From an uncultured Methanosarcinales archaeon (GTDB lineage: Archaea > Nanobdellota > Nanobdellia > Woesearchaeales > GW2011-AR9): 64,000 nucleotides of DNA. The position numbers and the translations under genes were made by a program. The stretch is from contig CAZWBB010000001.1 of NCBI GenBank assembly GCA_964632045.1, positions 1-64,000 of the forward strand. The letters run 5' to 3'. Below, in pieces: positions 1 through 54,947 of this stretch; position 1 is the stretch's first letter; each line of letters begins with the position of its first letter. Under the pieces are notes generated by a model that searched no databases, had not been told where the DNA came from, and saw nothing but the letters and a program-made list of their open reading frames with translations.

Positions 1-156
1 GTGGGGGGAAATAATTCACGTTCACAATATCCCTCTCGGGCGGCTGGTTTCTACTGTAGCAATGACAACTTCCGTGTGGATGGCGATGGCAGCCTCGACG
101 ACCGGGGTCGTTCTCGTGGGGTGATTTATCCGCGAAGCGGCGAAACGAAAAAATGA
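1..156 (+). CDS. 3' fragment of a leader-family paralog (array A); C-terminus ...GRSRGVIYPRSGETKK
   Basis: Nt 1-150 are ~85% identical to 770-905, the C-terminal coding region of the next paralog. Stop TGA at 154-156 overlaps ATG 153 (ATGA). Confidence 0.6.
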   Translation: MGGNNSRSQYPSRAAGFYCSNDNFRVDGDGSLDDRGRSRGVIYPRSGETKK

Positions 157-908
157 ACATACTCAAACCACTACGACAATCAGGACTGCTTTCCGAAGAG
201 GAAGCGTTGAGAGACCTAGAGGACATCCCAATGGTGAGAGAAACATCCTCCCCGATCCCCTCAGGAAAGGATACTGGAAACATCATTCTTGATTGCCATG
301 CTGCTGAGAAAGGAGATAGAAGAACTCAGGATGAATGGATTGAATATTGGAATAAAAGTGACAGAGTAATGGCTTCCATGGCAGACTATTATCAGTATTT
401 CAAGCAATTGAAAGGGAATAATGATGAAGACAAAGTCAAGACGTTGCTTACCAGCCTGAGGGAAGATTTTGACCACCAGGAAAAAGGTAACTGGCTCATT
501 AGCAGTACCAGATTAGTCTATTCAAAAGATAATCTGGATGCAAGGATCATTCCTCATTATGGATGCGCTCGAGAGGAAGTAACAATAAAAGTTCCTTATT
601 ATGGTGGCGTCCCTATTACGCAGGTGGTCGGCGAGGGAGAAGGATTAACTTATCTGCAGACATTGTTTGGTACTGAGGATGAAGGGGAAGAGATAATTCA
701 GATATTGGAGTTTGTTAGCGATAGGAATAGAGACGTAATAAAAGTGTGGACGGCTGCTGTGGAAGACGCTTATACACGTTCACAATACCCCTCGCGGGCG
801 GCTGGTTTCGGCTATGGCGATGACGACTTCCATGTTGGTGGCGGCCTCTACGGCCGAGGTCGTTCTCGTGGGGTGATTTATCCGCGAAGCGGCGCGACGA
901 AAAAATGA
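153..908 (+). CDS. Leader-family paralog, subfamily B (N-term MNILKPLRQSGLLSEEEALRDLED; C-term GRGRSRGVIYPRSGATKK)
   Basis: ORF with conserved 25-aa N-terminal leader. Its body is similar to 2619..3347 (EWIEYWNK...MADYYQYFKQLKG). ATGA overlap with the next gene. Confidence 0.8.
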   Translation: MNILKPLRQSGLLSEEEALRDLEDIPMVRETSSPIPSGKDTGNIILDCHAAEKGDRRTQDEWIEYWNKSDRVMASMADYYQYFKQLKGNNDEDKVKTLLTSLREDFDHQEKGNWLISSTRLVYSKDNLDARIIPHYGCAREEVTIKVPYYGGVPITQVVGEGEGLTYLQTLFGTEDEGEEIIQILEFVSDRNRDVIKVWTAAVEDAYTRSQYPSRAAGFGYGDDDFHVGGGLYGRGRSRGVIYPRSGATKK

Positions 909-1768
909 ACATACTCAAACCATTAAGACCATCAGGACTGCTTTCTGAGGAGGAAGCGTTGAAAGATATAGAGAGTGCTCCTGATGCAGAAATTCCCAGA
1001 GACGATAACAAACAAGAAGTACAGGAAATGGGGAATAAACATCTCAGATTAGGTGTTGATTACGGACTGATCTACATCGACCGTGCTACCAGTGACCTGG
1101 TCATTACCGATGGGAAAGATTTTGAAGTCATTCTGAGGGAAGTAAATCTCAATGACGTATTCTATGATGAAAAACTCTACTACACAAAAGATTGCAGCCT
1201 GTATGAATGGCCATCCAGATTGCTGCACGACTACGGTGTGAACGGAACAGGTGGTAAAGAGGCTGTAGGTATCGGCAAACATGACGGAAGACTCATTGTC
1301 ACTCTTCCCTATGTTGGTGAGATCGCTGATGAGCAGGGCAACATAATCTTTGAAGGATTGCAGCAACCCATCAGTGTCTGTTCCTACAAAGGAGAATTAT
1401 ACCACACTGAAGCGTCCCAGGGCAGAGGCCTGGTGAAGACGCCTTATCAGCTTGTTCATCGGCCAGGCAGGTACGCCCTAGGACTTGCTGCTGGGGAAAA
1501 AATATTTTTTGGGGGAGAAGATGAAACATTATACAGCTATGACGGACAGGTGCAACGTGTATGTAATCTGGGATCAACCTGCGGTCTCCTGGAATGTGTT
1601 GGAGATGTTCTCTACGCAGCAGGCCTCCATAAGATAGGCATCCACTCCATCCCATTAGATGATCCATCAGCAAGGAAGACTTTACTGCGAGGACATGTGC
1701 CTGAGGGTATAAGGGCAATGACAGCTGTCCCTATGACTTTCATACATGAACTAAGCGAAAACAAATGA
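905..1768 (+). CDS. Leader-family paralog, subfamily A (putative beta-propeller-like repeats; LYYT..LYEWPS motif)
   Basis: Conserved N-terminal leader. Repeated LY(Y/F)T and GxxY blade-like motifs. Conserved C-terminal V.PMTFI motif shared with 6500, 7291, 8124, 8978 and 9810. Confidence 0.8.
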   Translation: MNILKPLRPSGLLSEEEALKDIESAPDAEIPRDDNKQEVQEMGNKHLRLGVDYGLIYIDRATSDLVITDGKDFEVILREVNLNDVFYDEKLYYTKDCSLYEWPSRLLHDYGVNGTGGKEAVGIGKHDGRLIVTLPYVGEIADEQGNIIFEGLQQPISVCSYKGELYHTEASQGRGLVKTPYQLVHRPGRYALGLAAGEKIFFGGEDETLYSYDGQVQRVCNLGSTCGLLECVGDVLYAAGLHKIGIHSIPLDDPSARKTLLRGHVPEGIRAMTAVPMTFIHELSENK

Positions 1769-2622
1769 ACATCCTAAAACCACTTAAACACGGAAACGTA
1801 CTGACGGAAGAGGAAGCGTTGAAGGATTTGGAGAATGCATCATCTACATCTCAGAATATTCCGATTACTGAAAATGTTTCTGAGACGACGTATTCCTGCT
1901 CAACCCTGGGAATTGATTGCGGACTAGTGTTAATCAATAAGACCAACCAGGAGATTTGTACAACTGATGGTGAAGATGTAACTTGTATCGGTAGAGAAAG
2001 AGGCTACCACAGATTGCACTACAACGGAACTGACTTGTATTACACCCGACATAACAAACTATACAGATGGCCTAGTCAGGAAGTCCAGAAGTATTATTAT
2101 AAAAAGAAAGCTGAGTGTACATCTGGTATAACTGAGTATGATGGAGAGACTCTAGTAGGTTTCCAGGATGGCATCTATAATGAAAAAGGAGAACGAAAGT
2201 ATGGGTCCGGACCCGTCAAGGACTTGATCAGATTTCAGAACAGACTATTCAGCATTCAGTTATGGAGAGGCAAATATTCATTTGTGGAAGTAGGAGTGGA
2301 AGCAAAGAAAGAAATAACATTCAGATCAAGGCTTGCTAAAATGGATGACCTTCTTTTACTGGGGCTTGAATGCGGCTCCGTCTTTTCATTTGATGGTGTA
2401 GACATGAGCCTGGTTTTCGCCTCCAACAGCCAGCAACGTTTATTATGTGCAACAAGTGATCGCCAGATGTATTTTGGCGGATTTGGCGAGGAAGGACTAT
2501 GGACACGTTCTTTGTATCCCCGGAGAAAGTCAGAGGCAATATTGCAGGAAAAGATCAAGAGTTGCACAGCAGGTATCACAGTACCACTTGATTTCATAGA
2601 ACACTTAAACAAAACAAAATGA
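1765..2622 (+). CDS. Leader-family paralog, subfamily A
   Basis: N-term MNILKPLKHGNVLTEEEALKDLE. LYYTRHNKLYRWPS motif. ATGA overlaps on both sides. Confidence 0.8.
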   Translation: MNILKPLKHGNVLTEEEALKDLENASSTSQNIPITENVSETTYSCSTLGIDCGLVLINKTNQEICTTDGEDVTCIGRERGYHRLHYNGTDLYYTRHNKLYRWPSQEVQKYYYKKKAECTSGITEYDGETLVGFQDGIYNEKGERKYGSGPVKDLIRFQNRLFSIQLWRGKYSFVEVGVEAKKEITFRSRLAKMDDLLLLGLECGSVFSFDGVDMSLVFASNSQQRLLCATSDRQMYFGGFGEEGLWTRSLYPRRKSEAILQEKIKSCTAGITVPLDFIEHLNKTK

Positions 2623-3347
2623 ACATCCTAAAACCACTTAAACACGGAAATGTAATGACTGAAGAGGAAGCGTTGAAGGATTTGGAAGGTGTACCATCCA
2701 TAGAACCAGTGAGTGCTGCGGATCAGCCGACTGGACTTGGAATCGTCCTACTCGATCAAGGTAATTCAGAAGACTCAAAAACCCAGCCTGAGTGGCTAGA
2801 ACATTATGACAAGATCACTGATGGTCGTGTATTCGCTGCTATGAGCGACTATTACGGATTCTTCAAACGGAAGATGGATCAGAAAACCGACAAACAGTAC
2901 GCTAAGGCGATGTTATGGCCCAATAATATTTCAGAATGCGACAGTCATCTTCTTACCAGCACCAGGATCGAACTCTTGCCATCCGGTCACACAAAAATAA
3001 TTCAACATTACGGCTGCAAGTATCCAGAACATATCAGCAAAAGAACTATCGTCGCACCGGTATTACACAAGATACCCCTCTCAGAAGCGATCAGGACAAA
3101 TTCGGCAAGGAGATACCTAAAAGCTCTGTTTGACACCGAAGACAAGACCGTCAAAATAATCCAAACGCTCGAGTTTATCGCAGGTGTAGACAGGAGAGAC
3201 ATAACCATTTCCACAATCCCCGATCCTCCCAGCCCTATTGAAAGTGATCAGAGAGCATCCGGGTTCAATTGTTTTTCCTCGGGGCTCGATATCTATACCT
3301 ACTCCCTTATAGGTGTGGGGCAATCACGAGGAGCATCTTACCCATGA
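2619..3347 (+). CDS. Leader-family paralog, subfamily B
   Basis: Same leader. Body is paralogous to 153..908 (EWLEHYDK...MSDYYGFFKRK; C-term GVGQSRGASYP). Confidence 0.8.
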   Translation: MNILKPLKHGNVMTEEEALKDLEGVPSIEPVSAADQPTGLGIVLLDQGNSEDSKTQPEWLEHYDKITDGRVFAAMSDYYGFFKRKMDQKTDKQYAKAMLWPNNISECDSHLLTSTRIELLPSGHTKIIQHYGCKYPEHISKRTIVAPVLHKIPLSEAIRTNSARRYLKALFDTEDKTVKIIQTLEFIAGVDRRDITISTIPDPPSPIESDQRASGFNCFSSGLDIYTYSLIGVGQSRGASYP

Positions 3348-4030
3348 ACATCCTAAAACCACTTAAACACGGAAATGTACTGACGGAAGAGGAAGCGTTG
3401 AAAGATATAGAGAGTGCTCCTGAGGTACTGGATAGCCCGCCGGGAACATGGAACACTATGCCTGAATTTCCAACCTATGGGCAGGCAATCACCCACATTG
3501 GATTGGAATATGCAAAAGGATATTGTAAAGGTCCACTTCACCAACACAATGACAGGACTATGATCCGCCCGCCCACCGTTAAAGAAATCGCGAAAGCCTG
3601 CGTTGAGGACTACGAAACAACAACTACTGCTGATAGTAGCAACCGAAGTGTCGAAGACAGGACTTTCCTGCTGAGAAGTAAGTGGAATACCTGCGCAGCT
3701 ACCATCAATAGTTTCTGGTCTGATAAATGGAAAATAAACCCAGTCTCCGATGAACTTATAACACTGGACAAAAGCACAGAAGTAAGGTATTCAAAGCTTG
3801 AATGGAATGTATTCAGTCTATTGGAAGTAGAAGGACGTGACTTCTGGAGGATTCTTATTAGTGATGATTCTTTGTATCAAGCATATCAAAAGATTGTCAG
3901 TCCGTATGGTCCGTTGGAAGTGGAGATAGAAGAACCATCAAAACAATACCTCAGAAACATCCGGGTTGAAGGGCAGAAACTGGTATTCTGTCCATTGAAT
4001 ATTACAGCAAGGTTCCTGGCAATAAAATGA
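3344..4030 (+). CDS. Leader-family paralog, subfamily C
   Basis: The internal ATG at 3344 restores the conserved leader MNILKPLKHGNVLTEEEALKDIESAP. The track ORF start at 3269 is a 5' run-on. Body is paralogous to 4027..4719 (MIRPPTVKEIAKACVEDYET...). Confidence 0.8.
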   Translation: MNILKPLKHGNVLTEEEALKDIESAPEVLDSPPGTWNTMPEFPTYGQAITHIGLEYAKGYCKGPLHQHNDRTMIRPPTVKEIAKACVEDYETTTTADSSNRSVEDRTFLLRSKWNTCAATINSFWSDKWKINPVSDELITLDKSTEVRYSKLEWNVFSLLEVEGRDFWRILISDDSLYQAYQKIVSPYGPLEVEIEEPSKQYLRNIRVEGQKLVFCPLNITARFLAIK

Positions 4031-4719
4031 ACATCCTAAAACCACTTAAACACGGAAATGTACTGACGGAAGAGGAAGTGTTGAAAGATATAGAGAGTGC
4101 GCCGATCGTTGACAGACCCATAGAGACTTCCAGATACGTTTGCATACGGGAACGCAATAACTATAAGGGAGCTCTTAATTCGCTGTTAATTTATCATGCT
4201 GCCTGCAGACGCAGCGGTCCGCTCTACGAGCATGATGGAAAGATGATAATACGGCCTCCTACAGTAAAAGAAGTAATACAGGCTAGAGTTGAGGATTATG
4301 AAACGCTCACCAATCCGGATGGCAGCAAGAGAAGTCTGGAGGAGAGGACCTGCTTGATTAGAACAAGTTTCAACACCTGCGCCGGTGTTTTGTTCAATCC
4401 TCATACTCAAAAATTAAAACTGAACCCTCTCTGCAAAGAATTGATAACACTGAACAGATCTTGTGGACGTAGAATATTCTATCAGGATTTTGAGGGCGAA
4501 GAATACTACCCTGGTGGTCTGATTGGACCTGATCGCTGGAGGATTTTTACTGAGGATGAGCAGTTACGTCAGGCATACTGGAATATCTCTAATACTGTGG
4601 ATACACCGAAGGAGCCAGTTCAAACTCCGGAAAAATACTTGAACAATGTTAGAGTTGGAGGAACTACTCTTACATTCTATCCCCTAAGCAAAAAAACAAC
4701 ATTCCTGCAGATAAGATGA
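4027..4719 (+). CDS. Leader-family paralog, subfamily C
   Basis: The leader nucleotides are almost identical to 3344-3420. Body is MIIRPPTVKEVIQARVEDYETLTNPDGSKRSLEER. Confidence 0.8.
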   Translation: MNILKPLKHGNVLTEEEVLKDIESAPIVDRPIETSRYVCIRERNNYKGALNSLLIYHAACRRSGPLYEHDGKMIIRPPTVKEVIQARVEDYETLTNPDGSKRSLEERTCLIRTSFNTCAGVLFNPHTQKLKLNPLCKELITLNRSCGRRIFYQDFEGEEYYPGGLIGPDRWRIFTEDEQLRQAYWNISNTVDTPKEPVQTPEKYLNNVRVGGTTLTFYPLSKKTTFLQIR

Positions 4720-6506
4720 CATTAGAACAACTGACACAAGACATAGTGGACGAAGAAACAGCAAAGTTTGATTACAAAGGAGATGTCCGTATCAAAGAGC
4801 AGATGGGAGATCCCTGCTTCTCCGGAAGGATCGACCTGCTGACAACTGCTAAGATAGAGATCTGCTACAATCCGGATTATGAGAAAGAAGCAGAATCCAT
4901 GGAGAAGATTGTCCCTCAACCTTTCAGGAAAGCTTTCACTGCAGTGATGCAGCACGAGCTGAACCATAAAGGGGGAGGAAGATTCCTTGGCTGTCCCAGG
5001 ACGATTGATCTGCACGCAGAGAAAGTTCTGGAACCAGTTTCGGAAGTGCTGAAAAGGGAGGATTTCCCTAACGTACCTGTGAGCAGCGGACAGACACTCT
5101 ATGCCTATATGGCAAATATGGTTGAAGATATCATCGACAATTCTGAACTTGGCAACAAAACGGACCATATCGGTATGTTTCTTTGCTACCATGATGATGC
5201 TATTCATTGTAAAGAAGGATTAAGTCCCCTCTTCAGCGCCTTTGTCAAGCTGCAGGAAGTTCTCTTCGGCGGGAGAAGAAGCAGGAAGCTGTTAAATGGC
5301 CACCATCCGAAAGATGACAAGGTTGACCAGGCGGTTGAAAACGTCATGCAACGCACAGGGATGAGCAGGATGCAGCGTCAGGTTGTTACAAGAAGGAAGA
5401 AGAAAAGAAAAGATGTATTTGACCGAAGGAGGGCAATGGAGCACTACACAGATGAAGAGAACTGGCCGGAAATATCCAAGATCATCACGGAAGAGTTCTG
5501 CGAACTGATCGACAAGGATGAACTTGAAAATCCACAATACATCGAGGAAACCTTCCTTCCACTTAAAGGAGAAGGCGACTCCTTCGGCGATGAGATGGAG
5601 GACGCTGACACTAAGATGAAGTTTGTCTGGAAGAAGTATCAGGGCAAAGGACAGGAATCCGGCGAGGATGATACTGAATTCCAACCACCCGCCTATCTGG
5701 AAAGCTTCGAAGCTCTTGACCTGCTCTATCAAAGATTGGCCAGGAATCTCCACATTAAGACGGAAAGCTCTACTCACAGTGAATCGATGCCAGTGATGTG
5801 GTACGGTAACCGGCCGGCAACACCAAGAGACAGGAGGGTAAGAGTCCGACTGGGAAGAGACGGTTGTCTTGAGCTGACTGCCAAGAGATATCATGAGGAC
5901 GAAGAGATCGAGTACACTGAAAGCATGCCCGGTCTGCCCGAGATAAAGTTTGTCATGCTGGATACCTCTTCCTCGATGCAATGTAGTATCGATGGCAGCC
6001 AGGGGAAGATCATGAATCCCTGGGCCTCCGAAAGTGTACAGTGGGATGATCGAAGCCGATACCATCATGCCCTTATCGCCTGGTATGGGCTGCTGGAACT
6101 GCTGCGGAGACAGGGAACATTGCGACACACTTCCGTAAAGCTTGCCAACTATTCCTGGGAGACCAAGAAAGCGGTCAATCTGAAAGAGGCCAAAAGGCTG
6201 GCCTTGAGTCCTCAGTTCGGAGGAACACAACTTGAACTACCTCAGATTAGGGACATGTTTGGTACAAAGCAGTTGGTAATCTCATTATCTGATGGAGATG
6301 TGATGAACTGGTATGACATAAAGACAGAATACATCAAACGGGCCAGGAACAACCATTATTTCCATCTACAGATAGGTGGGCAGAGTAATATGTCCATGGA
6401 TCTGGAGAAGGCAGGATTGCATGTGGTCTATGATGATGGCAGCAACCTGGGCAATATTGTTGTTGATCTGACAAAACCGTTTATCGTGAGGAAGAAGAAA
6501 TGGTAG
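4716..6506 (+). CDS. HExxH putative zinc metallopeptidase N-domain fused to a vWA domain (DUF2201-like architecture)
   Basis: HELNH motif (AVMQHELNHKGGG). MIDAS DxSxS (VMLDTSSSMQ) plus downstream GGT and SDGD vWA motifs. Embedded in array A with ATGA overlap at 4716-4719. Confidence 0.75.
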   Translation: MTLEQLTQDIVDEETAKFDYKGDVRIKEQMGDPCFSGRIDLLTTAKIEICYNPDYEKEAESMEKIVPQPFRKAFTAVMQHELNHKGGGRFLGCPRTIDLHAEKVLEPVSEVLKREDFPNVPVSSGQTLYAYMANMVEDIIDNSELGNKTDHIGMFLCYHDDAIHCKEGLSPLFSAFVKLQEVLFGGRRSRKLLNGHHPKDDKVDQAVENVMQRTGMSRMQRQVVTRRKKKRKDVFDRRRAMEHYTDEENWPEISKIITEEFCELIDKDELENPQYIEETFLPLKGEGDSFGDEMEDADTKMKFVWKKYQGKGQESGEDDTEFQPPAYLESFEALDLLYQRLARNLHIKTESSTHSESMPVMWYGNRPATPRDRRVRVRLGRDGCLELTAKRYHEDEEIEYTESMPGLPEIKFVMLDTSSSMQCSIDGSQGKIMNPWASESVQWDDRSRYHHALIAWYGLLELLRRQGTLRHTSVKLANYSWETKKAVNLKEAKRLALSPQFGGTQLELPQIRDMFGTKQLVISLSDGDVMNWYDIKTEYIKRARNNHYFHLQIGGQSNMSMDLEKAGLHVVYDDGSNLGNIVVDLTKPFIVRKKKW

Positions 6507-7294
6507 AGACTCTAAAACCATTAAGAAAAGGACCAAGAATCCTCACAGAGGAAGAAGTCTTGGCTGATCTGGCAGGATTACAGGAGCAACCAAATTCATC
6601 TGAAGAAGAAAAGTGGAAAGGATTAGGAATCGATTATTGTCTTGCATTTGCAGATGATATGATCCGATGTACCGATGGAAACCGATCAGACGTGTTTCTG
6701 GAAGAGAGAACTGATTGCCTGACTTACAGCAGCCAGTTGTATTACATAATGGAAGAATCACTTTACAGATGGCCAAAAGAACAGATATTTGACTTTCAGA
6801 AAGCACCACATGGGGTGGCTGCGTACCAAGACGGAGTTGTTATCTCATTTCCATTTTCAGTCTGTGATCAGGGAGGTAATACAATCTTTGAGAACAGGAA
6901 ATCTTTCATAAATCTGATAGAAGTGTTCAACGGAGAGATATACTATGCTACCGGCGTGAACAATGGCGAACTTGTAAAAGCTCCAAATACTTCGATAGAA
7001 ACATTTGGCGAACCACTATTCGGAATCACTACTTCAGAAAATAACTTGTATATCTCCGGACGTCATAATATTTACCGATACGATGGCAAATCTGTAAAAA
7101 GGATATTTCAATATGATGGCCAGATACAATGCATAAAATATGTTCAAGATGTAAGTGGCGAATATCTGTTCATTGGAAATACAAATGAAAATATCGTCCG
7201 CCTATACTTGCAGAATACAAAAAACAAAACATACATCCCTGATACAAAATCTGCATCTTCGATAGCAGTAATACCCATGACCTTTGTAAAATGA
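6500..7294 (+). CDS. Leader-family paralog, subfamily A (variant leader MVETLKPLRKGPRILTEEEVLADLAG)
   Basis: LYYIMEESLYRWPKE motif. C-term IAVIPMTFVK. Confidence 0.75.
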   Translation: MVETLKPLRKGPRILTEEEVLADLAGLQEQPNSSEEEKWKGLGIDYCLAFADDMIRCTDGNRSDVFLEERTDCLTYSSQLYYIMEESLYRWPKEQIFDFQKAPHGVAAYQDGVVISFPFSVCDQGGNTIFENRKSFINLIEVFNGEIYYATGVNNGELVKAPNTSIETFGEPLFGITTSENNLYISGRHNIYRYDGKSVKRIFQYDGQIQCIKYVQDVSGEYLFIGNTNENIVRLYLQNTKNKTYIPDTKSASSIAVIPMTFVK

Positions 7295-8127
7295 ACATCC
7301 TTAAACCATTAAAACGCGGAAATGTACTGACGGAAGAGGAAGTATTGAAAGATATTGAGCAGATTTCCAGTGAGAGGTCTACCCCGAACAATAAACCTAA
7401 GGGCGCTGTCATGAAAGGGTTGGGGAAGGATTATGGATTAGTTTTCTGTGAAGAGGAGACTCTATATGCTTCTTTGGACGGAGAAAGTTCTACCATCGTT
7501 GGCAAAGGAAAATACAATGACTTCTTTTTTGACGGAGATGATCTTTATTACACAACTGGAAATGACTGCTTTAGATGGCCAAATGAAAACATATTTTCTG
7601 CAGAAAAACCTCTTTGGGGAATCTGCAAACACGAAGGAAGAATAATTGTAGCCTGTCCAGAAAGGAAAATGATACTGAGAGATTATGGAAGCCCTGATTA
7701 TCATGCACACCGTCCAGTTGGAATTGCCTCCTACAAAGGCCAGCTTTTTTGTACTTCGGAAGAACCAGATGGATTGATTAGGCTACCAAACGAGCTGATA
7801 GCTTCATGCGGAAGCTATACCGATGGAATCTGCGTACTGGAAGACATATTATACTTTGCCGGACAGAATGGAATCATCTATCAATATGATGGAAATGATG
7901 TTAAAGAGAAATTCAAATTACGAAATAAGTTTGGCTCCACGGAACCGATATTCAAATTAGATGGAGTTCGAGATAATACGGGAGATGTAATATATGCTTC
8001 ACTGGGCCCGGGGACACGAGTTATTAATCTAACTGCTTTGACAGCTAAGACTATCCTTAAGAATCACTCCGGAGCAAAATCAGTAACTGTAGTGCCTCTC
8101 GATTACCTTAAGAACATGATAAAATGA
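7291..8127 (+). CDS. Leader-family paralog, subfamily A
   Basis: MNILKPLKRGNVLTEEEVLKDIE leader. LYYTTGNDCFRWPNE motif. C-term VTVVPLDYLKNMIK. ATGA overlaps. Confidence 0.8.
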   Translation: MNILKPLKRGNVLTEEEVLKDIEQISSERSTPNNKPKGAVMKGLGKDYGLVFCEEETLYASLDGESSTIVGKGKYNDFFFDGDDLYYTTGNDCFRWPNENIFSAEKPLWGICKHEGRIIVACPERKMILRDYGSPDYHAHRPVGIASYKGQLFCTSEEPDGLIRLPNELIASCGSYTDGICVLEDILYFAGQNGIIYQYDGNDVKEKFKLRNKFGSTEPIFKLDGVRDNTGDVIYASLGPGTRVINLTALTAKTILKNHSGAKSVTVVPLDYLKNMIK

Positions 8128-8990
8128 ACATCCTTAAACCATTAAAACGCGGAAATGTAATGACGGAAGAAGAAGTATTGAAGGAGTTAGAGAATGTTCC
8201 TGATAGCAATAATGCTCCAGAGGAGGTAGATGTTGCATCTCCGGATGATCCTGGAGAGACATTCCATGCCCTGGGAATCGATTATGGACTGATCTTTGCC
8301 AGCAATGGGCGAATCTTCACATCCAGAGATGGACAGGAGGTAAAAGAGATCCGACGTAAGGCTGGTGGGGGTATTCTCTATCAGAACAAAAATCTACACC
8401 ACTCATCTGGTAATGAGGTTGTCCAGTGGCCTGACGGAAACACGTATACTTTTGAGGATGAAGTAACGGGTATCAATCAATATCATGGAAGGATATTCAT
8501 AACGCTTCCAGGAAAAATCTGCAATCTTCAGGGAAGAACGATAGCTGAAGCAGAGAGAGCAAAACAAGCAACCTTCTATTGCGGCGACCTGTGGTATATC
8601 TCTAAAGGCAAGCTTCATACAAAACATTTTACGCGTAAGACATGGATGCCTGAGATGGACACCCACCATGAGAAAGTCCTTGCGGAATTTGAAGATTCAT
8701 TGTATACGAGCTGCAGCCAACAGGTGTTGGACAGATACCAACCTAGTGGAGTGCAGCACAGACTGTCCGGAAAATTTCCATATAATCCACACTGCATAAG
8801 AGGGATGAGAGACAGGGACGGAGTAAAAATCTTCTTAGGTACAGAATTTGGAATAAAGTCAATCAACATAGAAAAACCTGAAGATATCTGCAATTACTGT
8901 TCGGGATGGTCACACATTGTAACTTCGATCACTTTTGCTCCGATAGATTTCATAAAAAGACTTAACGCCGGCTCAAAATGGAAATACTAA
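8124..8990 (+). CDS. Leader-family paralog, subfamily A
   Basis: MNILKPLKRGNVMTEEEVLKELE leader. C-term ITFAPIDFIKRL. Confidence 0.8.
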   Translation: MNILKPLKRGNVMTEEEVLKELENVPDSNNAPEEVDVASPDDPGETFHALGIDYGLIFASNGRIFTSRDGQEVKEIRRKAGGGILYQNKNLHHSSGNEVVQWPDGNTYTFEDEVTGINQYHGRIFITLPGKICNLQGRTIAEAERAKQATFYCGDLWYISKGKLHTKHFTRKTWMPEMDTHHEKVLAEFEDSLYTSCSQQVLDRYQPSGVQHRLSGKFPYNPHCIRGMRDRDGVKIFLGTEFGIKSINIEKPEDICNYCSGWSHIVTSITFAPIDFIKRLNAGSKWKY

Positions 8991-9826
8991 AACCCCTAAA
9001 ACAAGGAAACGTACTGACAGAGGAGGAAGCTTTACGCGATCTGGGATACTATGATGACGAAGAGATGCCCACGACGGAATTCCAGGTTCCTGGATTCAGG
9101 ACAAGATTAGGAAAAGATTATGGATTGGCTCTCATAAATCGAGGATCCTGTGATCTTTGCACCACTGTTGACGGCAATACGGTATTCACTTATCCCTCAC
9201 AGAGAGGATACCATAAACTATTCTTTGATGAAAACCTCTATTTCACAAGAAACAAAACATTATACAAATGGCCATCTGAGAAGGTTTCATCTTTTGCTGC
9301 AAATGCTTTTGGTGTATGCAAACTGGAAGGTATGTTTGCTGTTGCTCTGGAAGACGGCATCATAGTGCATAATAATGCTTTTCCCAACATCAGAACCACT
9401 TATAGACTGCATGACCTGGTCAATTTCAAAAGTTGCTTCTACTCAACCACAGAAGATGGCAAACTGCTGGTGACCTACCCATCGGATACTCCATCAACAT
9501 ACGAACTTTCTATCCCTCAGGCTTTGTGCTTGAAGGCAACGGATGACATCCTGTACATAGGTGGGGCTGATGGAAAAGTAACAGCAATGACAGAGGATGG
9601 TTCTGAAGAAGTCTGCCAGCTTTCTTCTGCCGTCCATTCAATGGAGATCGTGCAGGAGGACGGAGACATCAGGCTCCTCTACGTTGGAGGAGAGTTCAGG
9701 AAAGGCATCACGATCGTAAATTTGGCAAACAAGCTGAAGAAGAAGATATTGGAGGAGACAGTAGAAGGAGTGAGTTCGATCGTAAAGATACCTCTCACAA
9801 TGTTAGAAGATGACAGAAATACTTAA
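8978..9826 (+). CDS. Leader-family paralog, subfamily A
   Basis: MEILKPLKQGNVLTEEEALRDL leader. LYFTRNKTLYKWPSEK motif. C-term IVKIPLTMLEDD. Confidence 0.8.
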   Translation: MEILKPLKQGNVLTEEEALRDLGYYDDEEMPTTEFQVPGFRTRLGKDYGLALINRGSCDLCTTVDGNTVFTYPSQRGYHKLFFDENLYFTRNKTLYKWPSEKVSSFAANAFGVCKLEGMFAVALEDGIIVHNNAFPNIRTTYRLHDLVNFKSCFYSTTEDGKLLVTYPSDTPSTYELSIPQALCLKATDDILYIGGADGKVTAMTEDGSEEVCQLSSAVHSMEIVQEDGDIRLLYVGGEFRKGITIVNLANKLKKKILEETVEGVSSIVKIPLTMLEDDRNT

Positions 9827-10688
9827 ACCACTGAGACATGGAAATGTACTTACAGAAGAGGAAGTGTTGAAGGAGTTAGAGAACTACGTTCCACCAAAAA
9901 GGGATTCCCGGGATGATCCAGAAGACTGCCTCATCTCAGGATTAGGAACAGATTATGGATTGATCTTCATCGATGAAGAGGGCACTCAGATACGTACTAC
10001 TTTGGATGGGATGGAGTACCAAACAGTATGTGAAGATACAACGGAACATGAGACAGCACATGCAATAACACCTAATACATTCAACTGCCTCTACGTTGAT
10101 GGGGACGAACTATACTTCACCAAAAGAAATGCTCTTTTCAAGTGGCCCGATCTCCAGATCGCAAAATTTGGATCGCTGGCGGAAGGTATTACAAAGAAAG
10201 GTGATAGGTTTTATGTTACACTTAAGGAAGGATCCATCGTCAATCATCTGCTTGAAGGAATCTCCTTCCGCTTGACCAATCCCTGCCAGTTAACTGTAAT
10301 GGGCGCCGGTATATACCACACAGAAGGAGATAGAGGAAGGGGGCTTGTAAAAACCTGTGTAAAATCTCTCTTCAATCCCAAATGCTGGATGAGCGGCTTG
10401 ACTTCCCTCGATAAAAAGATCTACTGTGGTGGGGGAGATATGAAAATCTACTCCCATAGCCATTCTAGTACTGAAACGCTATTCGAAACTGACTTTGGCA
10501 TATGGAGTCTAAAAGCGATAGAACATGACGGTCAACAGATTCTCTTCGCCGGTGGAGAATGCCACCCGGGAATTCTGGTAGTTGACATCAAAAAGAAGGA
10601 AAAGATGTCCACACTTCTGGAAGGCATGCTTGATGGAGTTTCCTCAATCGTTACGGCTCCACTTGAGTTGATTGAAAGGATGAATTAA
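9810..10688 (+). CDS. Leader-family paralog, subfamily A (last array member in window)
   Basis: MTEILKPLRHGNVLTEEEVLKELE leader. LYFTKRNALFKWPD motif. C-term IVTAPLELIERMN. Confidence 0.8.
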   Translation: MTEILKPLRHGNVLTEEEVLKELENYVPPKRDSRDDPEDCLISGLGTDYGLIFIDEEGTQIRTTLDGMEYQTVCEDTTEHETAHAITPNTFNCLYVDGDELYFTKRNALFKWPDLQIAKFGSLAEGITKKGDRFYVTLKEGSIVNHLLEGISFRLTNPCQLTVMGAGIYHTEGDRGRGLVKTCVKSLFNPKCWMSGLTSLDKKIYCGGGDMKIYSHSHSSTETLFETDFGIWSLKAIEHDGQQILFAGGECHPGILVVDIKKKEKMSTLLEGMLDGVSSIVTAPLELIERMN

Positions 10689-32710: not shown

Positions 32711-32720
32711 AGGTGATAGA

Positions 32721-50072: not shown

Positions 50073-51839
50073 TTATGCTATTCCATAGGTCTTAAACAGT
50101 CTGAGCATCTCATCCGGCAGTCGGTGTAATTCATCCCTGCCCAGCAGAGTGTAATGCTTAGGTCCGATGTGTTTTGTCAGCTCTTTTGCATAACCGTCGA
50201 ACTCCTTGCCGATAACGATGACAAAGGGAAACACTTTGTTGTCGTACAGTTCTTTGAGGACTTCAGGAGCCCCCTTATCGGTCGATTCCCCGTCAGTAAT
50301 GATGGTGATCCCCCGAGGTCGTTCGCCTTGTCTTTCCAACACATGGCCGACCGCTTTTGAACTGGCAGCCAGACGAGTTCCTGCAACATCACTTTTCCTA
50401 CATACAGAGATGATCTTGTTGGCCACTTGAGGATTGTAGGTTTCAGGGAAGTCTTTGATCCTATAAAGGTTACCGCTGAAAGCAAAGAGGCCGAATGGAT
50501 AGTCAGTAACTCCTAACGCTTCCCCCTGGATAAGTAATCCTGCTTTTATCTCATTGATGATATTGTAATGATCCAGATCTGTAGATGGACTGATGTCAGC
50601 CAGGACTGCCCAGGCCGGTCTGTGCTTAAAGCGGCTTTTGGAGACGAAGTGGCGGCCGTTCCTGCTGATGCTGGTCACTTCTCTCTCCAGATCGGTCTGC
50701 AAAAATTCTTCATATTCTAAGTCTTGACCGGAAAAATCCAGGCGTGAAGAACGATGTGTCTGTTTCAGGCGTCGGAAAATACTTTTCATGGAGCCGATGG
50801 CGTAGGCATACTTGTCCCGCAGCTCTTTTTCTTTACGAATGACCCAGTCGGAGTAATCTGGATTCACTTTGACGATGGAGATGTCGGCATCCTCGGATGC
50901 TTCTGTATAGAGACTTTCCCTATCTTTGTCATGCTTAGATGGTTTGGGCTTAGTCTTTTTCCCTTTTGGGTCCGGCTTTTCCTCCTTACCTTTGCCTTTC
51001 TTGAGCCGTTTGGGTCTTTTCTCCTTTTTGTCACGTCCTTCTCTGGGTTTGACTTCCCCCCCATAACCCTGCTGCGGGCTGCCAGGAGTCTTGCTGTGGT
51101 TGCCTTTTCCCTGCTGTTGGGGGAGACGTTTTATCTTCTGCTTGATGTCAAAATTCTCTTTGAATATCTGGTAGATCTTATCGACGGCTTCTTTGTCTTC
51201 ATAGATGGAATCGGCAGAATGACACAGTTCTACACATTCTTCCAGTATCTGCTGATGTTCTTCAGGGACAGGTTCAACTGTGCAGCCCAGCAGAGCCTGC
51301 TGCAGGAATTGTTCTCTGAAAGCGTCCAGCTCAGACATTTTTTTTATGCTTGGCCGGAAATATTTTATGGCATCGTGATGAACTTCCTTGTCATACTTGG
51401 CCAATCCAGGCAACTGCTCACAACGCTGCGCATCGATCCGTCTGTCTTTGACGATGTTATCTATGAATCCGGCCAGGGCAGGATTCTCGGTGAGGTCTGC
51501 ATGGTTCCTCTGCAGGTAGACTCCGACCACACCTTCTCCTTGATTCCTAATAGAATGGATCTCATCTCCGAAATATTCTTCATATTCCCTGATATGGTCA
51601 GCTTCATGAGCAGTGGAGTTGGCTATGTTCATCTCATTATCTCTTTTTTTCTTGCAGAGCTTCTCTCTTGCTGGCAGGAAGATCTTCGTTCCGTCAGTAG
51701 CAGGACAGCCGTTATCACCTTCGATCATCGAACCGCCCTGAATCTCGATGGGATGTTTTTGAGAGGCGCCTTTACCGATACGAAAATCTACCATCCTTTC
51801 CAGTTTTCCAAGCACTTCTGATGTTTTTACTGTGGTCAT
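50073..51839 (-). CDS. HExxH putative metallopeptidase N-domain, Lys-rich linker and vWA domain (DUF2201-like architecture)
   Basis: HEADH (STAHEADHIREYEEY). MIDAS DxSxS (AVLADISPSTD) with downstream T and ITDGEST motifs. About 70-aa K/E/P-rich low-complexity linker. ATGA overlap with 51836. Confidence 0.75.
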   Translation of the reverse strand: MTTVKTSEVLGKLERMVDFRIGKGASQKHPIEIQGGSMIEGDNGCPATDGTKIFLPAREKLCKKKRDNEMNIANSTAHEADHIREYEEYFGDEIHSIRNQGEGVVGVYLQRNHADLTENPALAGFIDNIVKDRRIDAQRCEQLPGLAKYDKEVHHDAIKYFRPSIKKMSELDAFREQFLQQALLGCTVEPVPEEHQQILEECVELCHSADSIYEDKEAVDKIYQIFKENFDIKQKIKRLPQQQGKGNHSKTPGSPQQGYGGEVKPREGRDKKEKRPKRLKKGKGKEEKPDPKGKKTKPKPSKHDKDRESLYTEASEDADISIVKVNPDYSDWVIRKEKELRDKYAYAIGSMKSIFRRLKQTHRSSRLDFSGQDLEYEEFLQTDLEREVTSISRNGRHFVSKSRFKHRPAWAVLADISPSTDLDHYNIINEIKAGLLIQGEALGVTDYPFGLFAFSGNLYRIKDFPETYNPQVANKIISVCRKSDVAGTRLAASSKAVGHVLERQGERPRGITIITDGESTDKGAPEVLKELYDNKVFPFVIVIGKEFDGYAKELTKHIGPKHYTLLGRDELHRLPDEMLRLFKTYGIA

Positions 51840-52870
51840 TTTATATCTGTTTCTAGTGTGTTCTTTATCTCCGGTATATCAACCTTCCATGGATCGATAA
51901 TCTTTACATTTTTAGGTTTGACTTCTGGCTTAGGTTTCTTTTTCTTTGGTGGCTTCATGTATGGTCTCAGGGTACTTCTGCCGGTGGGGAAAACATAGGG
52001 GTAGACTAGCGATGCTGCTAACCTTACAGGGTAGACTAAAGGATGAATTCCGTCCAGAAGAAGAAATCCTGCCACGGGGATAAGTGCCGCATTGGCTATG
52101 TCTGCTTCTGGGGAGTATCCTTTTCCTGCTTTGTCAAGAATGTCCTCGCCCCGCAGTTTTCGTGAAGCATATCCAAACAATAAGGGAAGGATTCCTCCCA
52201 GGAGTATTCCTGCTCCCCAGGGAATCCTGTCTTCCCAGGGAAAATCGTCAGAAATTCTTTTTATATCAAGTGTGTCCCTTCTTTTGTAGAGGCCGCTCTT
52301 GAAGCGTTTAATATCTTCGGGCGGTCTGAAAGTACCATATAGGTCCCAGATATTTCCATTTAAGTCCAGTCTTAATTGTTTTGTGATGCCCGCGCCATGA
52401 TGCAGAAATCTGTAGTGTGTCTCACGGACCCACTCTTCTTTTGCTGCAAGATGCGTCTGCATCGCTTTGAGATCATTTCCGGCCACACTTCTAACAAATT
52501 CAAAATATTCCCGCTGTTCTGGAGTGTGGACAAGACTGTTCTTTTGAGTCTCTGAGGTCTTCTGGCGGATCTCTTTATCGGTCCTGCTTAGGACGGATTC
52601 TAAAGCAGTGATCTCATGGGTGTTCAGTTCACGATCAGCGCTGAAAGCATTGTATAGATCGCTGTAGACAAGATATTCTTTTTTTGAGTCGTCGAAAGTG
52701 GGCTGCTCTGGAGTAAGTTTTTCCGGGAGTGAGATGCCAGCTTTGGCGATAGTCTCCTCTACTGTCGGTTCCAGTTTTCTCTCAGCAGCAAGCATGAAGC
52801 CGCTGCCCACCAGCAATCCACCAGCTAGAACAAGTGGAGTACTTTTCCTAAGCATGTATCTGTAGTTCAT
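51836..52870 (-). CDS. C-tail-family paralog, secreted subtype (signal peptide; C-term IIDPWKVDIPEIKNTLE)
   Basis: N-terminal MNYRYMLRKSTPLVLAGGLLVGSGFMLA signal. GxxxG-rich hydrophobic segment (GAGILLGGILPLLFGYASRKLRG). Conserved C-terminal motif. Confidence 0.75.
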   Translation of the reverse strand: MNYRYMLRKSTPLVLAGGLLVGSGFMLAAERKLEPTVEETIAKAGISLPEKLTPEQPTFDDSKKEYLVYSDLYNAFSADRELNTHEITALESVLSRTDKEIRQKTSETQKNSLVHTPEQREYFEFVRSVAGNDLKAMQTHLAAKEEWVRETHYRFLHHGAGITKQLRLDLNGNIWDLYGTFRPPEDIKRFKSGLYKRRDTLDIKRISDDFPWEDRIPWGAGILLGGILPLLFGYASRKLRGEDILDKAGKGYSPEADIANAALIPVAGFLLLDGIHPLVYPVRLAASLVYPYVFPTGRSTLRPYMKPPKKKKPKPEVKPKNVKIIDPWKVDIPEIKNTLETDIK

Positions 52871-53943
52871 TCTGAATCTTTCCTCACTTCTAATGTACTT
52901 TTTATCTCTGGTATCTCAACTTCCCATGGATCGATGATCTTTGCTTTTGGAGGTTCGATCTCAGGAGGTTCTGTTTCAGGCTCTTCTACCTGCACCTTTC
53001 CTGTTTTCTTCTTTTCGCTCGGGAAAATATATGGGCAGACTAACGCTGCCGCGATCCTTACTGGGTAGACCATTGGATGGATACTATCAAGAAGTATGAA
53101 TCCCGCGACGGGATTTGCAATAATGTTGATGTAATCACTTGTGCCTCCGTTTTCTCCATCACCTATAAATTCCTCGCCACGAATTCTCCTTACTCCATAA
53201 CTAAAAAGTCCTGGCAGCAGTAATCCCATAAAAAGACCCAGGGAGTAAGGTATCTTATCCTCCCAGGGGTAGTCGTCGATGAAGTCTCTAATCAGAAGGT
53301 TTTCTCTGCTGTTGTAGAGACCACTCTTGAAATGTTCTATTTCTTTGCTTGGATTGAATAGGTTCCTCAGGTATACGGGTTCTCCTTTTCTCCGGTCACC
53401 GCGGTCTTGCTTATGGATGTTTCCAGTGTACGGTGTAGAAAGATTGACGATCTTACCTGAACCATGATGCCAGTATCTGTCCACTGTTGAAGCCAACCAT
53501 TCTTCCTTTTTCTCAAGATGCAGGCGAAGTTCTTTAAGATCAGTGCTTTTGATTCCAAGAACATAAGTTACATATTTCTGTTCTGCTTCTGAACGGATTG
53601 CGTTGATGTCCCACAATTCCTCGCTCTTCTTACCTATTTCCTCCACCAATCTGTCCAGGATATATTCTAGCGCTTCGATCTCTCCAGTACTGAGTTCATC
53701 ATCGGTAGTGAATCTTTCATAAGCTCTGCTGTAGATAAGGAATTCTTGTTTTGGCTTATCGTAGATAGGCTCTTTTGGAGTCAGTCTTTCTGGTAGGGGG
53801 AAGTCGATGCTGGCAGGGATGCCTTCTTCTGCATTTTCTCCCTCGGTTGGTTGTTCACTTCCACTTAACATGATGCTTCCTGTCAACAATCCACCAGCTA
53901 GGATGAGTGGAGTTCCTTTCCTAAGTATCTTTTTGTAGTTCAT
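52867..53943 (-). CDS. C-tail-family paralog, secreted subtype
   Basis: Signal peptide MNYKKILRKGTPLILAGGLLTG. C-term KIIDPWEVEIPEIKSTLE. Confidence 0.75.
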   Translation of the reverse strand: MNYKKILRKGTPLILAGGLLTGSIMLSGSEQPTEGENAEEGIPASIDFPLPERLTPKEPIYDKPKQEFLIYSRAYERFTTDDELSTGEIEALEYILDRLVEEIGKKSEELWDINAIRSEAEQKYVTYVLGIKSTDLKELRLHLEKKEEWLASTVDRYWHHGSGKIVNLSTPYTGNIHKQDRGDRRKGEPVYLRNLFNPSKEIEHFKSGLYNSRENLLIRDFIDDYPWEDKIPYSLGLFMGLLLPGLFSYGVRRIRGEEFIGDGENGGTSDYINIIANPVAGFILLDSIHPMVYPVRIAAALVCPYIFPSEKKKTGKVQVEEPETEPPEIEPPKAKIIDPWEVEIPEIKSTLEVRKDSE

Positions 53944-54932: not shown

Positions 54933-54947
54933 CTTTTGCCTACCTCA

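What the first reader, a model, noticed from the sequence alone, without database searches (positions are those of the whole stretch)
4716..6506. HExxH metallopeptidase-vWA fusion gene embedded in the middle of the leader-family array
The 596-aa protein has an N-terminal HELNH motif and a C-terminal vWA with MIDAS DTSSS. It is translationally coupled by ATGA at both ends to leader-family paralogs. This HExxH_N plus vWA architecture is the usual partner of MoxR-type AAA+ ATPases (established family knowledge: DUF2201_N/DUF2201). Its position suggests the leader peptides could be substrates or recognition tags for this peptidase-vWA module. That link is inference. The cognate AAA+ ATPase for array A is not in the window and may lie upstream of position 1.
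Basis: partly seen in the sequence, partly recalled or inferred. Interest (0 to 1): 0.75.

Follow-up and report, generated by a model that had tools for sequence, protein, structure and literature searches.

The report
Protease–adaptor hub for tagged variable proteins
The gene is real and encodes a very divergent zinc-protease-like domain fused to a metal-dependent adhesion (vWA) domain; in tiny symbiotic (DPANN) archaea it always sits with a MoxR-type ATPase among genes for binding proteins that share a short terminal tag, most of them hypermutated by a retroelement, which gives a first testable idea of how these proteins are handled.

The parts
4716..6506 (+). Target gene V_A: 596-aa zincin-like + vWA protein
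   Evidence: ORF and translation. 44 homologs with no Pfam hit. AF2 model with pLDDT 89.3 and pTM 0.83.
4716..5759 (+). N-terminal domain (aa 1-348), zincin-like metallohydrolase core plus a helical bundle
4953..4967 (+). HELNH motif (H80 E81 H84)
   Evidence: H80 and H84 are present in 79/79 relatives; E81 in 73/79, with Gly in the other 6. The motif lies on predicted helix 69-85.
4989..4997 (+). G92-C93-P94 motif, 8-10 residues after the second His; candidate extra metal ligand or switch
   Evidence: G 73/79, C 76/79, P 79/79. The role is inference.
5115..5129 (+). N134...E137-D138 on helix 128-148; D138 is the candidate third metal ligand
   Evidence: N134 and D138 in 79/79, E137 in 65/79. 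The ligand role is inferred; no coordinates were available to check it.
5928..6491 (+). C-terminal vWA domain (about aa 405-592)
5961..5975 (+). MIDAS DxSxS (D416 T S418 S S420)
   Evidence: D416 79/79, S418 79/79, S420 as 76 Ser plus 3 Thr.
6225..6227 (+). MIDAS Thr (T504, in FGGT)
   Evidence: 79/79.
6291..6293 (+). MIDAS Asp (D526, in SDGD)
   Evidence: 79/79.
1..155 (+). 3' end of a truncated a-type paralog (a0) that runs off the window start, with a VR-like variable stretch
   Evidence: 84% identical to 772-908: the flanks are identical and the middle is variable.
153..908 (+). Tagged paralog a1
   Evidence: The tag HMM hits aa 1-33. The body is 32% identical to a2.
905..1768 (+). Tagged paralog c1; in sibling contig L086 the MoxR gene sits directly upstream of this gene
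1765..2622 (+). Tagged paralog c2
2619..3347 (+). Tagged paralog a2
3344..4030 (+). Tagged paralog b1 (the true start is ATG 3344, not TTG 3269)
   Evidence: The tag lies at aa 26-58 of the longer ORF. The repeat register agrees.
4027..4719 (+). Tagged paralog b2, homologous to the proven DGR targets of locus L003
   Evidence: BLASTP E 1e-12 to 4e-22 against the L003 targets. The L003 TR/VR pairs are shown.
6500..7294 (+). Tagged paralog c3 (7-nt overlap with the target gene)
7291..10688 (+). Tagged paralogs c4 (7291-8127), c5 (8124-8990), c6 (8978-9826) and c7 (9810-10688)
50073..51839 (-). V_B: a second HExxH (HEADH) + vWA protein belonging to the analogous array B
   Evidence: Pfam VWA at E 1.7e-4, below threshold. 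The family alignment has invariant H77, E78, H81, D414, S418 and D515. It is not detectably homologous to V_A.
54948..56444 (-). MoxR-type AAA+ ATPase of array B
   Evidence: Pfam AAA_5 at E 5e-9. A weak GvpN match.
51836..63702 (-). Eleven array-B paralogs (three at 51836-54932, eight at 56381-63702), each ending in [DN]PWx[VM][DE]xPE[IL]
   Evidence: The regex hits 12 times, only at these C-termini.
63702..63839 (-). Small AbrB-like ORF (46 aa) heading array B; it is homologous to the small ORF that heads V_A-type cassettes
   Evidence: tblastn E 2.8e-4, HMM E 1e-20, alignment A6.

Best explanation
The gene encodes the adaptor-protease subunit of a DPANN-archaeal MoxR-vWA machine. Its clients are the neighbouring tag-bearing binding proteins.

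Shown:
- It has a vWA domain with a complete, invariant MIDAS site.
- It has an N-terminal domain with an invariant His-x-x-x-His metal site on a zincin-like core.
- It is always encoded with a MoxR-like AAA+ ATPase.
- It is flanked by proteins that share a locus-specific N-terminal peptide of about 25-35 residues.
- In most relatives those proteins carry C-terminal variable regions rewritten by an adjacent diversity-generating retroelement.

Inferred mechanism:
- The acidic, helix-forming tag (here LKPLxxGxxLTEEEALxDLE) docks by a Glu/Asp carboxylate onto the MIDAS metal of the vWA domain, as in other MIDAS-ligand pairs.
- The MoxR hexamer binds the vWA protein and uses ATP to remodel or present the client.
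- The zincin-like site then cuts in or just after the tag and its flexible linker, which releases or activates the binding protein.
- One hub therefore serves many interchangeable paralogs, because they all carry the same handle.

In this window the array is expanded to 12 tagged genes of three unrelated body types. The retroelement and the ATPase lie outside the window.
For: Domains:
- H80, H84, D138, D416, S418, T504 and D526 are present in 79/79 relatives; E81 in 73/79.
- One divergent family member gives sub-threshold Pfam VWA_2/VWA hits.

Partnership:
- A MoxR-like gene lies upstream in 45/45 loci.
- Its profile best matches the MoxR structure 2r44 (E 6e-7). Walker A G72-K73 and Walker B E143 are invariant, as are N185, R206 and R317, which I take to be sensor and arginine-finger residues.
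- Sibling contig L086 joins that ATPase to the gene equal to window 905-1768.

Tags:
- In 41/46 loci at least two flanking ORFs share an N-terminal peptide; in 39/46 they lie on both sides of the gene.
- Tag sequences differ between loci but are near-identical within a locus.
- In the window the tag DNA is 70-96% identical, while the protein bodies are 22-40% identical or belong to unrelated families.
- The tag occurs nowhere else in the 64 kb.

Independent parallel:
- Array B in the same window combines a MoxR ATPase, a non-homologous HExxH-vWA protein and 11 paralogs with a shared acidic C-terminal tag.

Retroelement link:
- In L003, 45/45 TR/VR mismatches fall at TR adenines.
- 32/39 loci with a reverse transcriptase have adenine-biased TR/VR pairs, with the VRs at the 3' ends of the tagged genes on either side of the gene.
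Against: - No experiment or complex model supports tag-MIDAS binding or tag cleavage. Both are inference from synteny and family knowledge.
- The catalytic Glu is Gly in 6/79 relatives while the His pair is kept. The metal site may therefore matter for something other than proteolysis.
- The third metal ligand is not identified.
- MoxR ATPases are usually chaperones for complex or cofactor maturation rather than protease partners.
- The window itself holds no ATPase, reverse transcriptase or template repeat for array A.
- Within-locus tag identity could partly reflect gene conversion or recent duplication rather than selection for a common receptor.
Confidence: 0.55

Rival explanations
1. Regulated degradation. 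The tags are degrons. MoxR plus the zincin-vWA protein form a split, FtsH-like ATP-dependent protease that turns over the tagged proteins, for example to clear misfolded products of hypermutation or to reset the repertoire, rather than maturing them.
For: The composition is the same as for the best explanation: an AAA+ ATPase, an HExxH domain and a receptor domain. All clients share one tag. Retroelement mutagenesis should generate many non-functional variants.
Against: MoxR-clade ATPases are not known as processive unfoldases (family knowledge). Paralogs without a recognisable variable region (the 7 c-type genes) carry the tag too. Keeping 12 co-transcribed genes only to degrade their products seems costly.
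Confidence: 0.15
2. Non-proteolytic chaperone or assembly factor. As with NorQ-NorD, CbbQ-CbbO and RavA-ViaA, the pair matures or assembles the tagged proteins into a complex. The His-x-x-x-His site binds or delivers a metal, or is structural, and does not cut peptide bonds.
For: The vWA domain resembles NorD, BchD and midasin. The His pair is invariant, but the catalytic Glu is lost in 6/79 members. The N-domain is only a distant zincin relative.
Against: The Glu is kept in 92% of members. The best structural neighbours are mostly real peptidases: minigluzincins, M48, M13 and CapP. No cofactor-dependent enzyme is encoded in the cassette.
Confidence: 0.15
3. Retroelement accessory factor. The gene and the ATPase serve the retroelement itself, in cDNA synthesis or retrohoming, in the way Avd does in bacterial DGRs. 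They do not act on the protein products.
For: The gene sits between target genes and next to TR-RT in most loci.
Against: 8 of 27 loci with wide flanks have no reverse transcriptase, and neither does this window. L008 is a second expanded array with no reverse transcriptase in the stretch held, although that contig ends about 3.2 kb beyond the gene. Array B has the same logic with no retroelement. A MIDAS site and a zincin core are protein-directed modules.
Confidence: 0.05
4. Ordinary DUF2201-type MoxR partner whose position among the tagged genes is incidental. The shared N-termini merely reflect recent tandem duplication and gene conversion.
For: The tag DNA is highly similar within the window, which is consistent with conversion. 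An alternative junction lies exactly at a leader.
Against: There is no HMM match to PF13203 or PF09967 in 34 members. Tagged ORFs lie on both sides of the gene in 39/46 loci spanning 23-62% identity. The same tag is attached to three unrelated body types. About half of the tag codon differences are synonymous (241 versus 248), so the copies have diverged at the DNA level while the peptide stayed conserved.
Confidence: 0.05

Closest known systems
VMAP ternary MoxR-vWA conflict systems coupled to DGRs in cyanobacteria and gammaproteobacteria (Kaur et al. 2020, PMC7159879; Dore et al. 2024, PMC10907252)
   Same: A MoxR-type ATPase, a vWA protein, a peptidase function and retroelement-diversified ligand-binding proteins are encoded together. 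The variable protein is thought to be the sensor and the ATPase the transducer.
   Different: No VMAP protein was found. The peptidase is a zincin-like domain fused to the vWA protein, rather than a trypsin or caspase on VMAP. The variable proteins are not fused to vWA; they are separate small proteins that share a terminal tag, often several per locus. The hosts are DPANN archaea. [quoted passage not shown]
Pfam DUF2201_N (PF13203) + DUF2201 (PF09967): putative metallopeptidase + vWA-like proteins found beside MoxR genes
   Same: An HExxH-bearing N-domain is followed by a vWA-like domain, and the partner gene is a MoxR-class ATPase.
   Different: There is no HMM match for the protein or for 34 relatives, even at E <= 1. 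The family is unannotated in Pfam, NCBIfam and PADLOC.
MoxR-vWA chaperone pairs: NorQ-NorD, CbbQ-CbbO, BchI-BchD, RavA-ViaA, and midasin MIDAS with its UBL ligands
   Different: Those partners have no peptidase domain and act on one defined client complex. Here there is an array of interchangeable tagged paralogs.
Nanoarchaeota/Woesearchaeota DGRs and their variable protein AvpA (Paul et al. 2015, PMC4372165; Handa et al. 2016, PMC5006420)
   Same: The organisms and the kind of cassette are the same. One related locus (L044) comes from Nanoarchaeota SCGC AAA011-G17, a genome studied in PMC4372165. There are multiple target genes per reverse transcriptase.
   Different: Those papers describe TP-VR-TR-RT only and call the function of the targets unknown. 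They do not mention the ATPase, the vWA-zincin gene or a shared N-terminal tag. Paul et al. 2017 (PMC5436926) could not be read.
FtsH (AAA+ ATPase fused to an M41 HExxH zincin)
   Same: An AAA+ ATPase is combined with an HExxH metalloprotease that acts on tagged or recognised substrates.
   Different: This is an analogy only. Here the ATPase is of the MoxR clade and is a separate polypeptide, a vWA receptor domain is present, and there is no membrane anchor.

Membership tests
vWA (von Willebrand factor A) domain superfamily | Rossmann-like alpha/beta fold of about 180 residues | tested here: met
vWA (von Willebrand factor A) domain superfamily | MIDAS motif DxSxS ... T ... D | tested here: met
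   D416, S418, T504 and D526 are present in 79/79 relatives; S420 is 76 Ser plus 3 Thr.
vWA (von Willebrand factor A) domain superfamily | Match to Pfam VWA models (PF00092, PF13519) above the gathering score | tested here: not met
   No hits for the protein at E <= 10 or for 34 relatives at E <= 1. One divergent member, P0239, gives sub-threshold hits at 9e-5 and 4e-4.
Zincin-like metallopeptidases | HExxH on the active-site helix, conserved in orthologs | tested here: met
   H80 and H84 are present in 79/79; E81 in 73/79, with Gly in 6. The motif lies on predicted helix 69-85.
Zincin-like metallopeptidases | Zincin core fold (mixed beta-sheet, active-site helix, ligand helix) | tested here: inconclusive
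Zincin-like metallopeptidases | Identified third metal ligand | tested here: inconclusive
   The candidates are D138 (79/79), C93 (76/79) and H100 (64/79).
Zincin-like metallopeptidases | Peptide-bond hydrolysis | not testable with these tools
   This needs biochemistry.
Pfam DUF2201_N (PF13203) / DUF2201 (PF09967) | HMM match to either model | tested here: not met
   No match in the protein or in any of 34 family members at E <= 1.
MoxR-vWA partner pair | MoxR-class AAA+ gene in the same operon | tested here: met
   Not in the window for array A. It is present in 45/45 related loci with at least 3.5 kb upstream and in sibling contig L086 (HMM E 2e-136). The ATPase profile best matches MoxR structure 2r44 at E 6e-7.
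VMAP ternary conflict system (Kaur et al. 2020) | A VMAP (vWA-MoxR-associated) protein as the third component | tested here: not met
   The target, five of the eleven array-A paralogs and one L003 tagged protein gave no significant Pfam hit (one search listed only chance-level matches, E 0.04-0.17). The remaining paralogs were not scanned.
VMAP ternary conflict system (Kaur et al. 2020) | MoxR ATPase plus vWA protein, often with DGR-diversified CLec/FGS sensors | tested here: met
   Met in relatives. In the window only the vWA protein and the putative sensors are present.
Diversity-generating retroelement cassette | Reverse transcriptase (RVT_1) next to a TR/VR pair whose mismatches fall at TR adenines | tested here: met
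   Met in relatives. RVT_1 scores E 2.7e-24. In L003, 45/45 mismatches are at adenines. 32/39 loci with a reverse transcriptase have adenine-biased pairs.
Diversity-generating retroelement cassette | Reverse transcriptase and template repeat present in this window | tested here: not met
   tblastn with the L003 reverse transcriptase finds nothing. No TR-like repeat of the paralog 3' ends exists elsewhere in the 64 kb. Only a0 and a1 share a VR-like stretch.

The most novel reading that the evidence does not exclude
DPANN archaea run a modular 'plug-in receptor' system. Many binding proteins, most of them continuously rewritten by a retroelement, each carry the same short terminal peptide. That peptide plugs them, through a MIDAS-carboxylate contact, into one MoxR-vWA-zincin hub. 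Ligand capture by any one of them is converted by the ATPase and the protease into a common output, such as tag cleavage, release or activation. This would be an archaeal, non-covalent counterpart of the bacterial vWA-CLec sensor fusions. It would amount to an anticipatory recognition system, for hosts or for viruses, in organisms with minimal genomes. The tag principle would be general, because a second system with unrelated sequences uses C-terminal tags in the same genome.
Probability: 0.3. Interest if true: 0.85.

Novelty: new variant of a known kind. Interest (0 to 1): 0.72.

Why it matters
The function of the retroelement-diversified proteins of DPANN archaea is an acknowledged open question. 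Published surveys find no recognisable domain or membrane anchor in them (PMC8144416) and call the function unknown (PMC5006420).

The results here show three things:
- These proteins carry a shared terminal tag.
- They are always encoded with a MoxR ATPase and a vWA-zincin protein. All three lie outside current domain libraries.
- The cassette composition is conserved across hundreds of family representatives.

This turns the question into concrete binding and cleavage experiments. It extends the MoxR-vWA-DGR theme from multicellular bacteria to ultra-small archaea. It also suggests a general way for one ATPase-adaptor hub to serve many interchangeable clients. In addition, it defines three unannotated protein families (V_A, its MoxR partner and the small regulator) that could be added to domain and defence-system databases.

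Tried and rejected
- Pfam, NCBIfam and PADLOC scans of the protein and its relatives found nothing.
- Sequence and profile searches of PDB gave only spurious hits: noelin, a C-type lectin neck and eS31.
- BLASTP and hhalign between the two HExxH-vWA proteins of the window showed no detectable homology. They are analogues, not paralogs.
- tblastn for a reverse transcriptase or an array-A MoxR in the window found none. blastn for a template repeat in the window found none.
- A second word-indexed homolog search with the alignment added only one fragment.
- The AlphaFold-database fold library was unavailable. Foldseek against PDB for the N-domain gave nothing significant.
- phmmer of three tagged proteins against PDB gave no AvpA or other hit.
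- The profile of the small ORF against PDB gave no significant hit. The AbrB-like label rests on the motif only.
- A scan of viral contigs found no relatives, so a virion-assembly role is not favoured.
- Paul et al. 2017 could not be retrieved, so prior mention of the ATPase or vWA genes there cannot be excluded.
- The exact-protein look-up for window 153-908 found no record.
- Promoter/terminator and tRNA scans were uninformative.
- A YbeY-like RNase reading of the N-domain was rejected. The motif is HExxH with a conserved Glu, and the YbeY third His at +6 is absent.
Full report
**1. The observation**

The + strand ORF 4716-6506 encodes 596 aa. HELNH is at residues 80-84 and DTSSS at 416-420. 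Its ATG overlaps the TGA of the preceding gene (ATGA). The following gene starts at ATG 6500 and the target ends at TAG 6506, so that overlap is the 7-nt ATGGTAG, not ATGA.

The gene sits inside a run of twelve overlapping, co-oriented genes (1-10688). Eleven of them, plus a truncated one at the window edge, begin with MNILKPLKxGNVLTEEEALKDLE. One listed ORF (3269-4030) really starts at ATG 3344.

**2. Is it a metallopeptidase-vWA fusion?**

- Pfam gives no family for the protein even at E <= 10.
- None of 34 relatives hits PF13203, PF09967, PF00092 or PF13519 at E <= 1.
- NCBIfam and PADLOC are also empty.
- Sequence and profile searches of PDB give only noise.

The architecture is nevertheless supported in two other ways.

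Conservation:
- The protein has 44 close homologs and 364 cluster representatives at E <= 1e-3 among 1.84 billion proteins.
- 89 tblastn-confirmed genomic stretches were found, of which 80 were kept as loci. Nearly all come from Woese-, Pace-, Nano- and Micrarchaeota bins.
- In 79 distinct members down to 23% identity, these residues are invariant: H80, H84, N134, D138, D416, S418, T504 and D526.
- S420 is Ser or Thr throughout, C93 is kept in 76 and E81 in 73, with Gly in the other 6.

Structure:
- An AlphaFold2 model built on the family alignment is confident (pLDDT 89.3, pTM 0.83).
- The N-terminal 348 residues, modelled alone (pLDDT 91.9), match mainly zincin-fold proteins. These are YbeY (7.7), projannalysin (7.4), BepA, PepO, HtpX, M32, ZMPSTE24, CapP, Wss1 and Spartan.
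- Those scores are moderate, and Foldseek finds nothing significant.
- One divergent member gives sub-threshold Pfam VWA hits.

I conclude that the vWA domain with a functional MIDAS site is well supported. The N-domain is a very divergent zincin-like metal site. It is probably, but not certainly, a peptidase.

**3. The surroundings in relatives**

One cassette is conserved on one strand, in this order:
- a small ORF of about 48 aa (AbrB-like by motif; RHH-like in a few loci);
- a protein of about 450 aa;
- one to several proteins of about 250-300 aa;
- the target family;
- another protein of about 270 aa;
- a short non-coding repeat;
- a reverse transcriptase (Pfam RVT_1, E 2.7e-24).

The 450-aa protein is an AAA+ ATPase.
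- Walker A G72-K73 and Walker B E143 are invariant. So are N185, R206 and R317, which I take to be sensor and arginine-finger residues.
- Its profile best matches the MoxR structure 2r44 (E 6e-7), followed by Clp D2 rings.
- It is upstream in 45 of 45 loci with at least 3.5 kb of flank. The small ORF is there in 40 of 45.

The repeat is the template repeat of a diversity-generating retroelement.
- In L003, all 45 mismatches between it and four variable regions fall at template adenines.
- 32 of 39 loci with a reverse transcriptase have such adenine-biased pairs.
- The variable regions lie at the 3' ends of the genes immediately upstream of the target family and immediately upstream of the template.

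The target family is therefore an integral, previously unannotated gene of DPANN DGR cassettes.

**4. The leaders**

- In 41 of 46 loci with flanks on both sides, at least two neighbouring ORFs share an N-terminal peptide. In 39 they lie on both sides of the gene. At least two of the five exceptions have similar N-termini that fall below my cut-off, or a masked sequence.
- The peptide differs between loci. Recurring types are LKPLxxGxxLTxEEAL, IPDxFxGKPxEGAxERxL, IFGxxTxEAYxK and RKSRxDPDLAxxxNEE. Within a locus it is nearly identical. It typically pairs a short hydrophobic stretch with an acidic, helix-prone segment and is followed by a low-complexity linker.
- In the window, with the tag removed, the paralogs fall into three unrelated body families: a (2 genes plus the truncated one), b (2) and c (7). 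Identity within a family is 22-40%.
- The 69-nt tag DNA is 70-96% identical across all of them. Codon differences are split about evenly between synonymous and non-synonymous changes (241 versus 248).
- The b family is homologous to the proven DGR targets of L003.
- The a family shows a VR-like pattern between a0 and a1: identical flanks and a variable centre.
- The window contains no template repeat and no reverse transcriptase.

**5. The missing ATPase**

- Contig L086 comes from the same metagenome as a contig identical to part of array B. It matches window 898-3574 at 99.9%.
- Upstream of the leader it carries a 458-aa MoxR-like gene (HMM E 2e-136). That gene overlaps, by ATGA, the gene equal to window 905-1768.
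- Another contig (L087) confirms the window's own arrangement at 100%.

Two arrangements therefore exist, and they differ exactly at a leader. This suggests recombination at the repeated leader, or a second copy. Locus L008 (54% identity) has a similarly expanded array of at least 12 tagged genes, with the ATPase at its head.

**6. A second system in the window**

On the minus strand, 50073-63839 encodes, in order:
- the same kind of small ORF;
- eight paralogs;
- a MoxR ATPase (AAA_5, E 5e-9);
- three more paralogs with N-terminal hydrophobic segments;
- a 588-aa HEADH + vWA protein.

All eleven paralogs end in [DN]PWx[VM][DE]xPE[IL], and that motif occurs nowhere else in the window. The array-B HExxH-vWA family keeps its HExxH and MIDAS-like residues. 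It is not detectably homologous to the target family. Two unrelated sequence families therefore realise the same logic: ATPase, metal-site-plus-vWA protein, and an array of proteins with a shared acidic terminal tag. One system uses N-terminal tags and the other C-terminal tags. I regard this as the strongest in-window support for reading the tags as handles for the vWA module.

**7. Mechanism**

Shown:
- the domains and their conserved metal sites;
- the obligatory gene partnership;
- the tag rule;
- the retroelement link.

Inferred:
- an acidic residue of the tag completes the MIDAS site, as in integrin, midasin and CbbO-type interactions (family knowledge);
- the MoxR ring, docked on the vWA protein, remodels the client with ATP;
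- the zincin-like site cleaves at or after the tag.

I put about 0.85 on 'zincin-like + vWA partner of a MoxR ATPase', about 0.6 on 'the tags are recognised by this module', and about 0.35 on 'the tags are cleaved'.

The rivals are regulated degradation (tags as degrons), a non-proteolytic chaperone or assembly role, a retrohoming accessory role and mere coincidence. The chaperone reading is favoured by the Glu-to-Gly replacements. The retrohoming reading is disfavoured by loci and arrays without a reverse transcriptase. Coincidence is disfavoured by the cross-locus tag rule.

No relatives were found in viral contigs. Integrase genes flank some cassettes.

**8. Comparison with what is known**

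- MoxR-vWA systems with DGR-diversified sensors are described in multicellular bacteria as VMAP ternary systems (PMC7159879; PMC10907252).
- The present cassette differs in four ways. It has no VMAP. The peptidase is a zincin fused to vWA. The sensors are detached and tagged. The hosts are DPANN archaea.
- The archaeal DGR papers that I could read describe only target, TR and RT, and call the target function unknown.
- Paul et al. 2017 could not be read, so prior notice there is not excluded.

I rate it a new variant of a known kind, carried by protein families that are absent from current libraries.

**9. Verdict**

Interest is 0.72.

Noticed in passing
window 50073-63839 (-): A second, sequence-unrelated system built on the same logic. 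It has a small AbrB-like ORF, 11 paralogs sharing the C-terminal tail [DN]PWx[VM][DE]xPE[IL], a MoxR AAA_5 ATPase and a HEADH + vWA protein. One paralog (60750-61769) carries the tail twice.
   Followed up: partly
L086 1-1975 versus window 898: A metagenome contig is 99.9% identical to window 898-3574 but diverges exactly at the start of a leader. Upstream it carries a c-type paralog and the MoxR-like ATPase instead of the window's a-type genes. This is either recombination at the repeated leader or a second genomic copy. Contig L087 confirms the window's arrangement.
   Followed up: partly
window 1-155 and 772-908: The 3' ends of two a-type paralogs have identical flanks and a variable centre with a 6-nt length difference. 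This looks like retroelement variable regions, but no template repeat exists in the window.
   Followed up: partly
family alignment, position E81: Six of 79 family members have Gly in place of the HExxH glutamate, while both His, D138 and the whole MIDAS site stay invariant. These may be catalytically dead members that still bind metal.
   Followed up: no
L001 6419-7651; L003 797-1534 and 4735-5244: Phage-integrase-family genes lie next to the cassettes in two related loci, so the cassette may travel on integrative elements. No relatives were found in the viral contig collection.
   Followed up: partly
L001 7712-7855; L020 5884-6033: In some loci the small AbrB-like ORF at the head of the cassette is replaced by a ribbon-helix-helix-like ORF. 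This is consistent with a transcriptional regulator role.
   Followed up: no
window 31248-34172 (+): A type IV prepilin-peptidase homolog (Peptidase_A24, E 2e-13) is followed by ORFs whose N-termini look like archaeal pilins. A 679-aa Cys-rich protein with an N-terminal hydrophobic segment lies nearby at 34700-36739 (-).
   Followed up: partly
window 44602-45699 (-): Another protein with an HExxH motif (HEVMH) and no Pfam match lies next to a 615-aa TPR-containing protein (45712-47559).
   Followed up: no
P0086, P0090, P0049: Distant relatives of the array-B HExxH-vWA protein include one that its source names 'nitric oxide reductase activation protein' (NorD-like). Others come from an Aerophobetes bacterium and a Heimdallarchaeaceae bin. 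That family therefore reaches beyond DPANN, unlike the target family.
   Followed up: no
window 1-64000: ARAGORN found no tRNA gene in the 64 kb. Several related bins are labelled 'Methanosarcinales' or 'Saccharibacteria' although their cassettes are DPANN-like, which suggests mis-binning or mislabelling.
   Followed up: no
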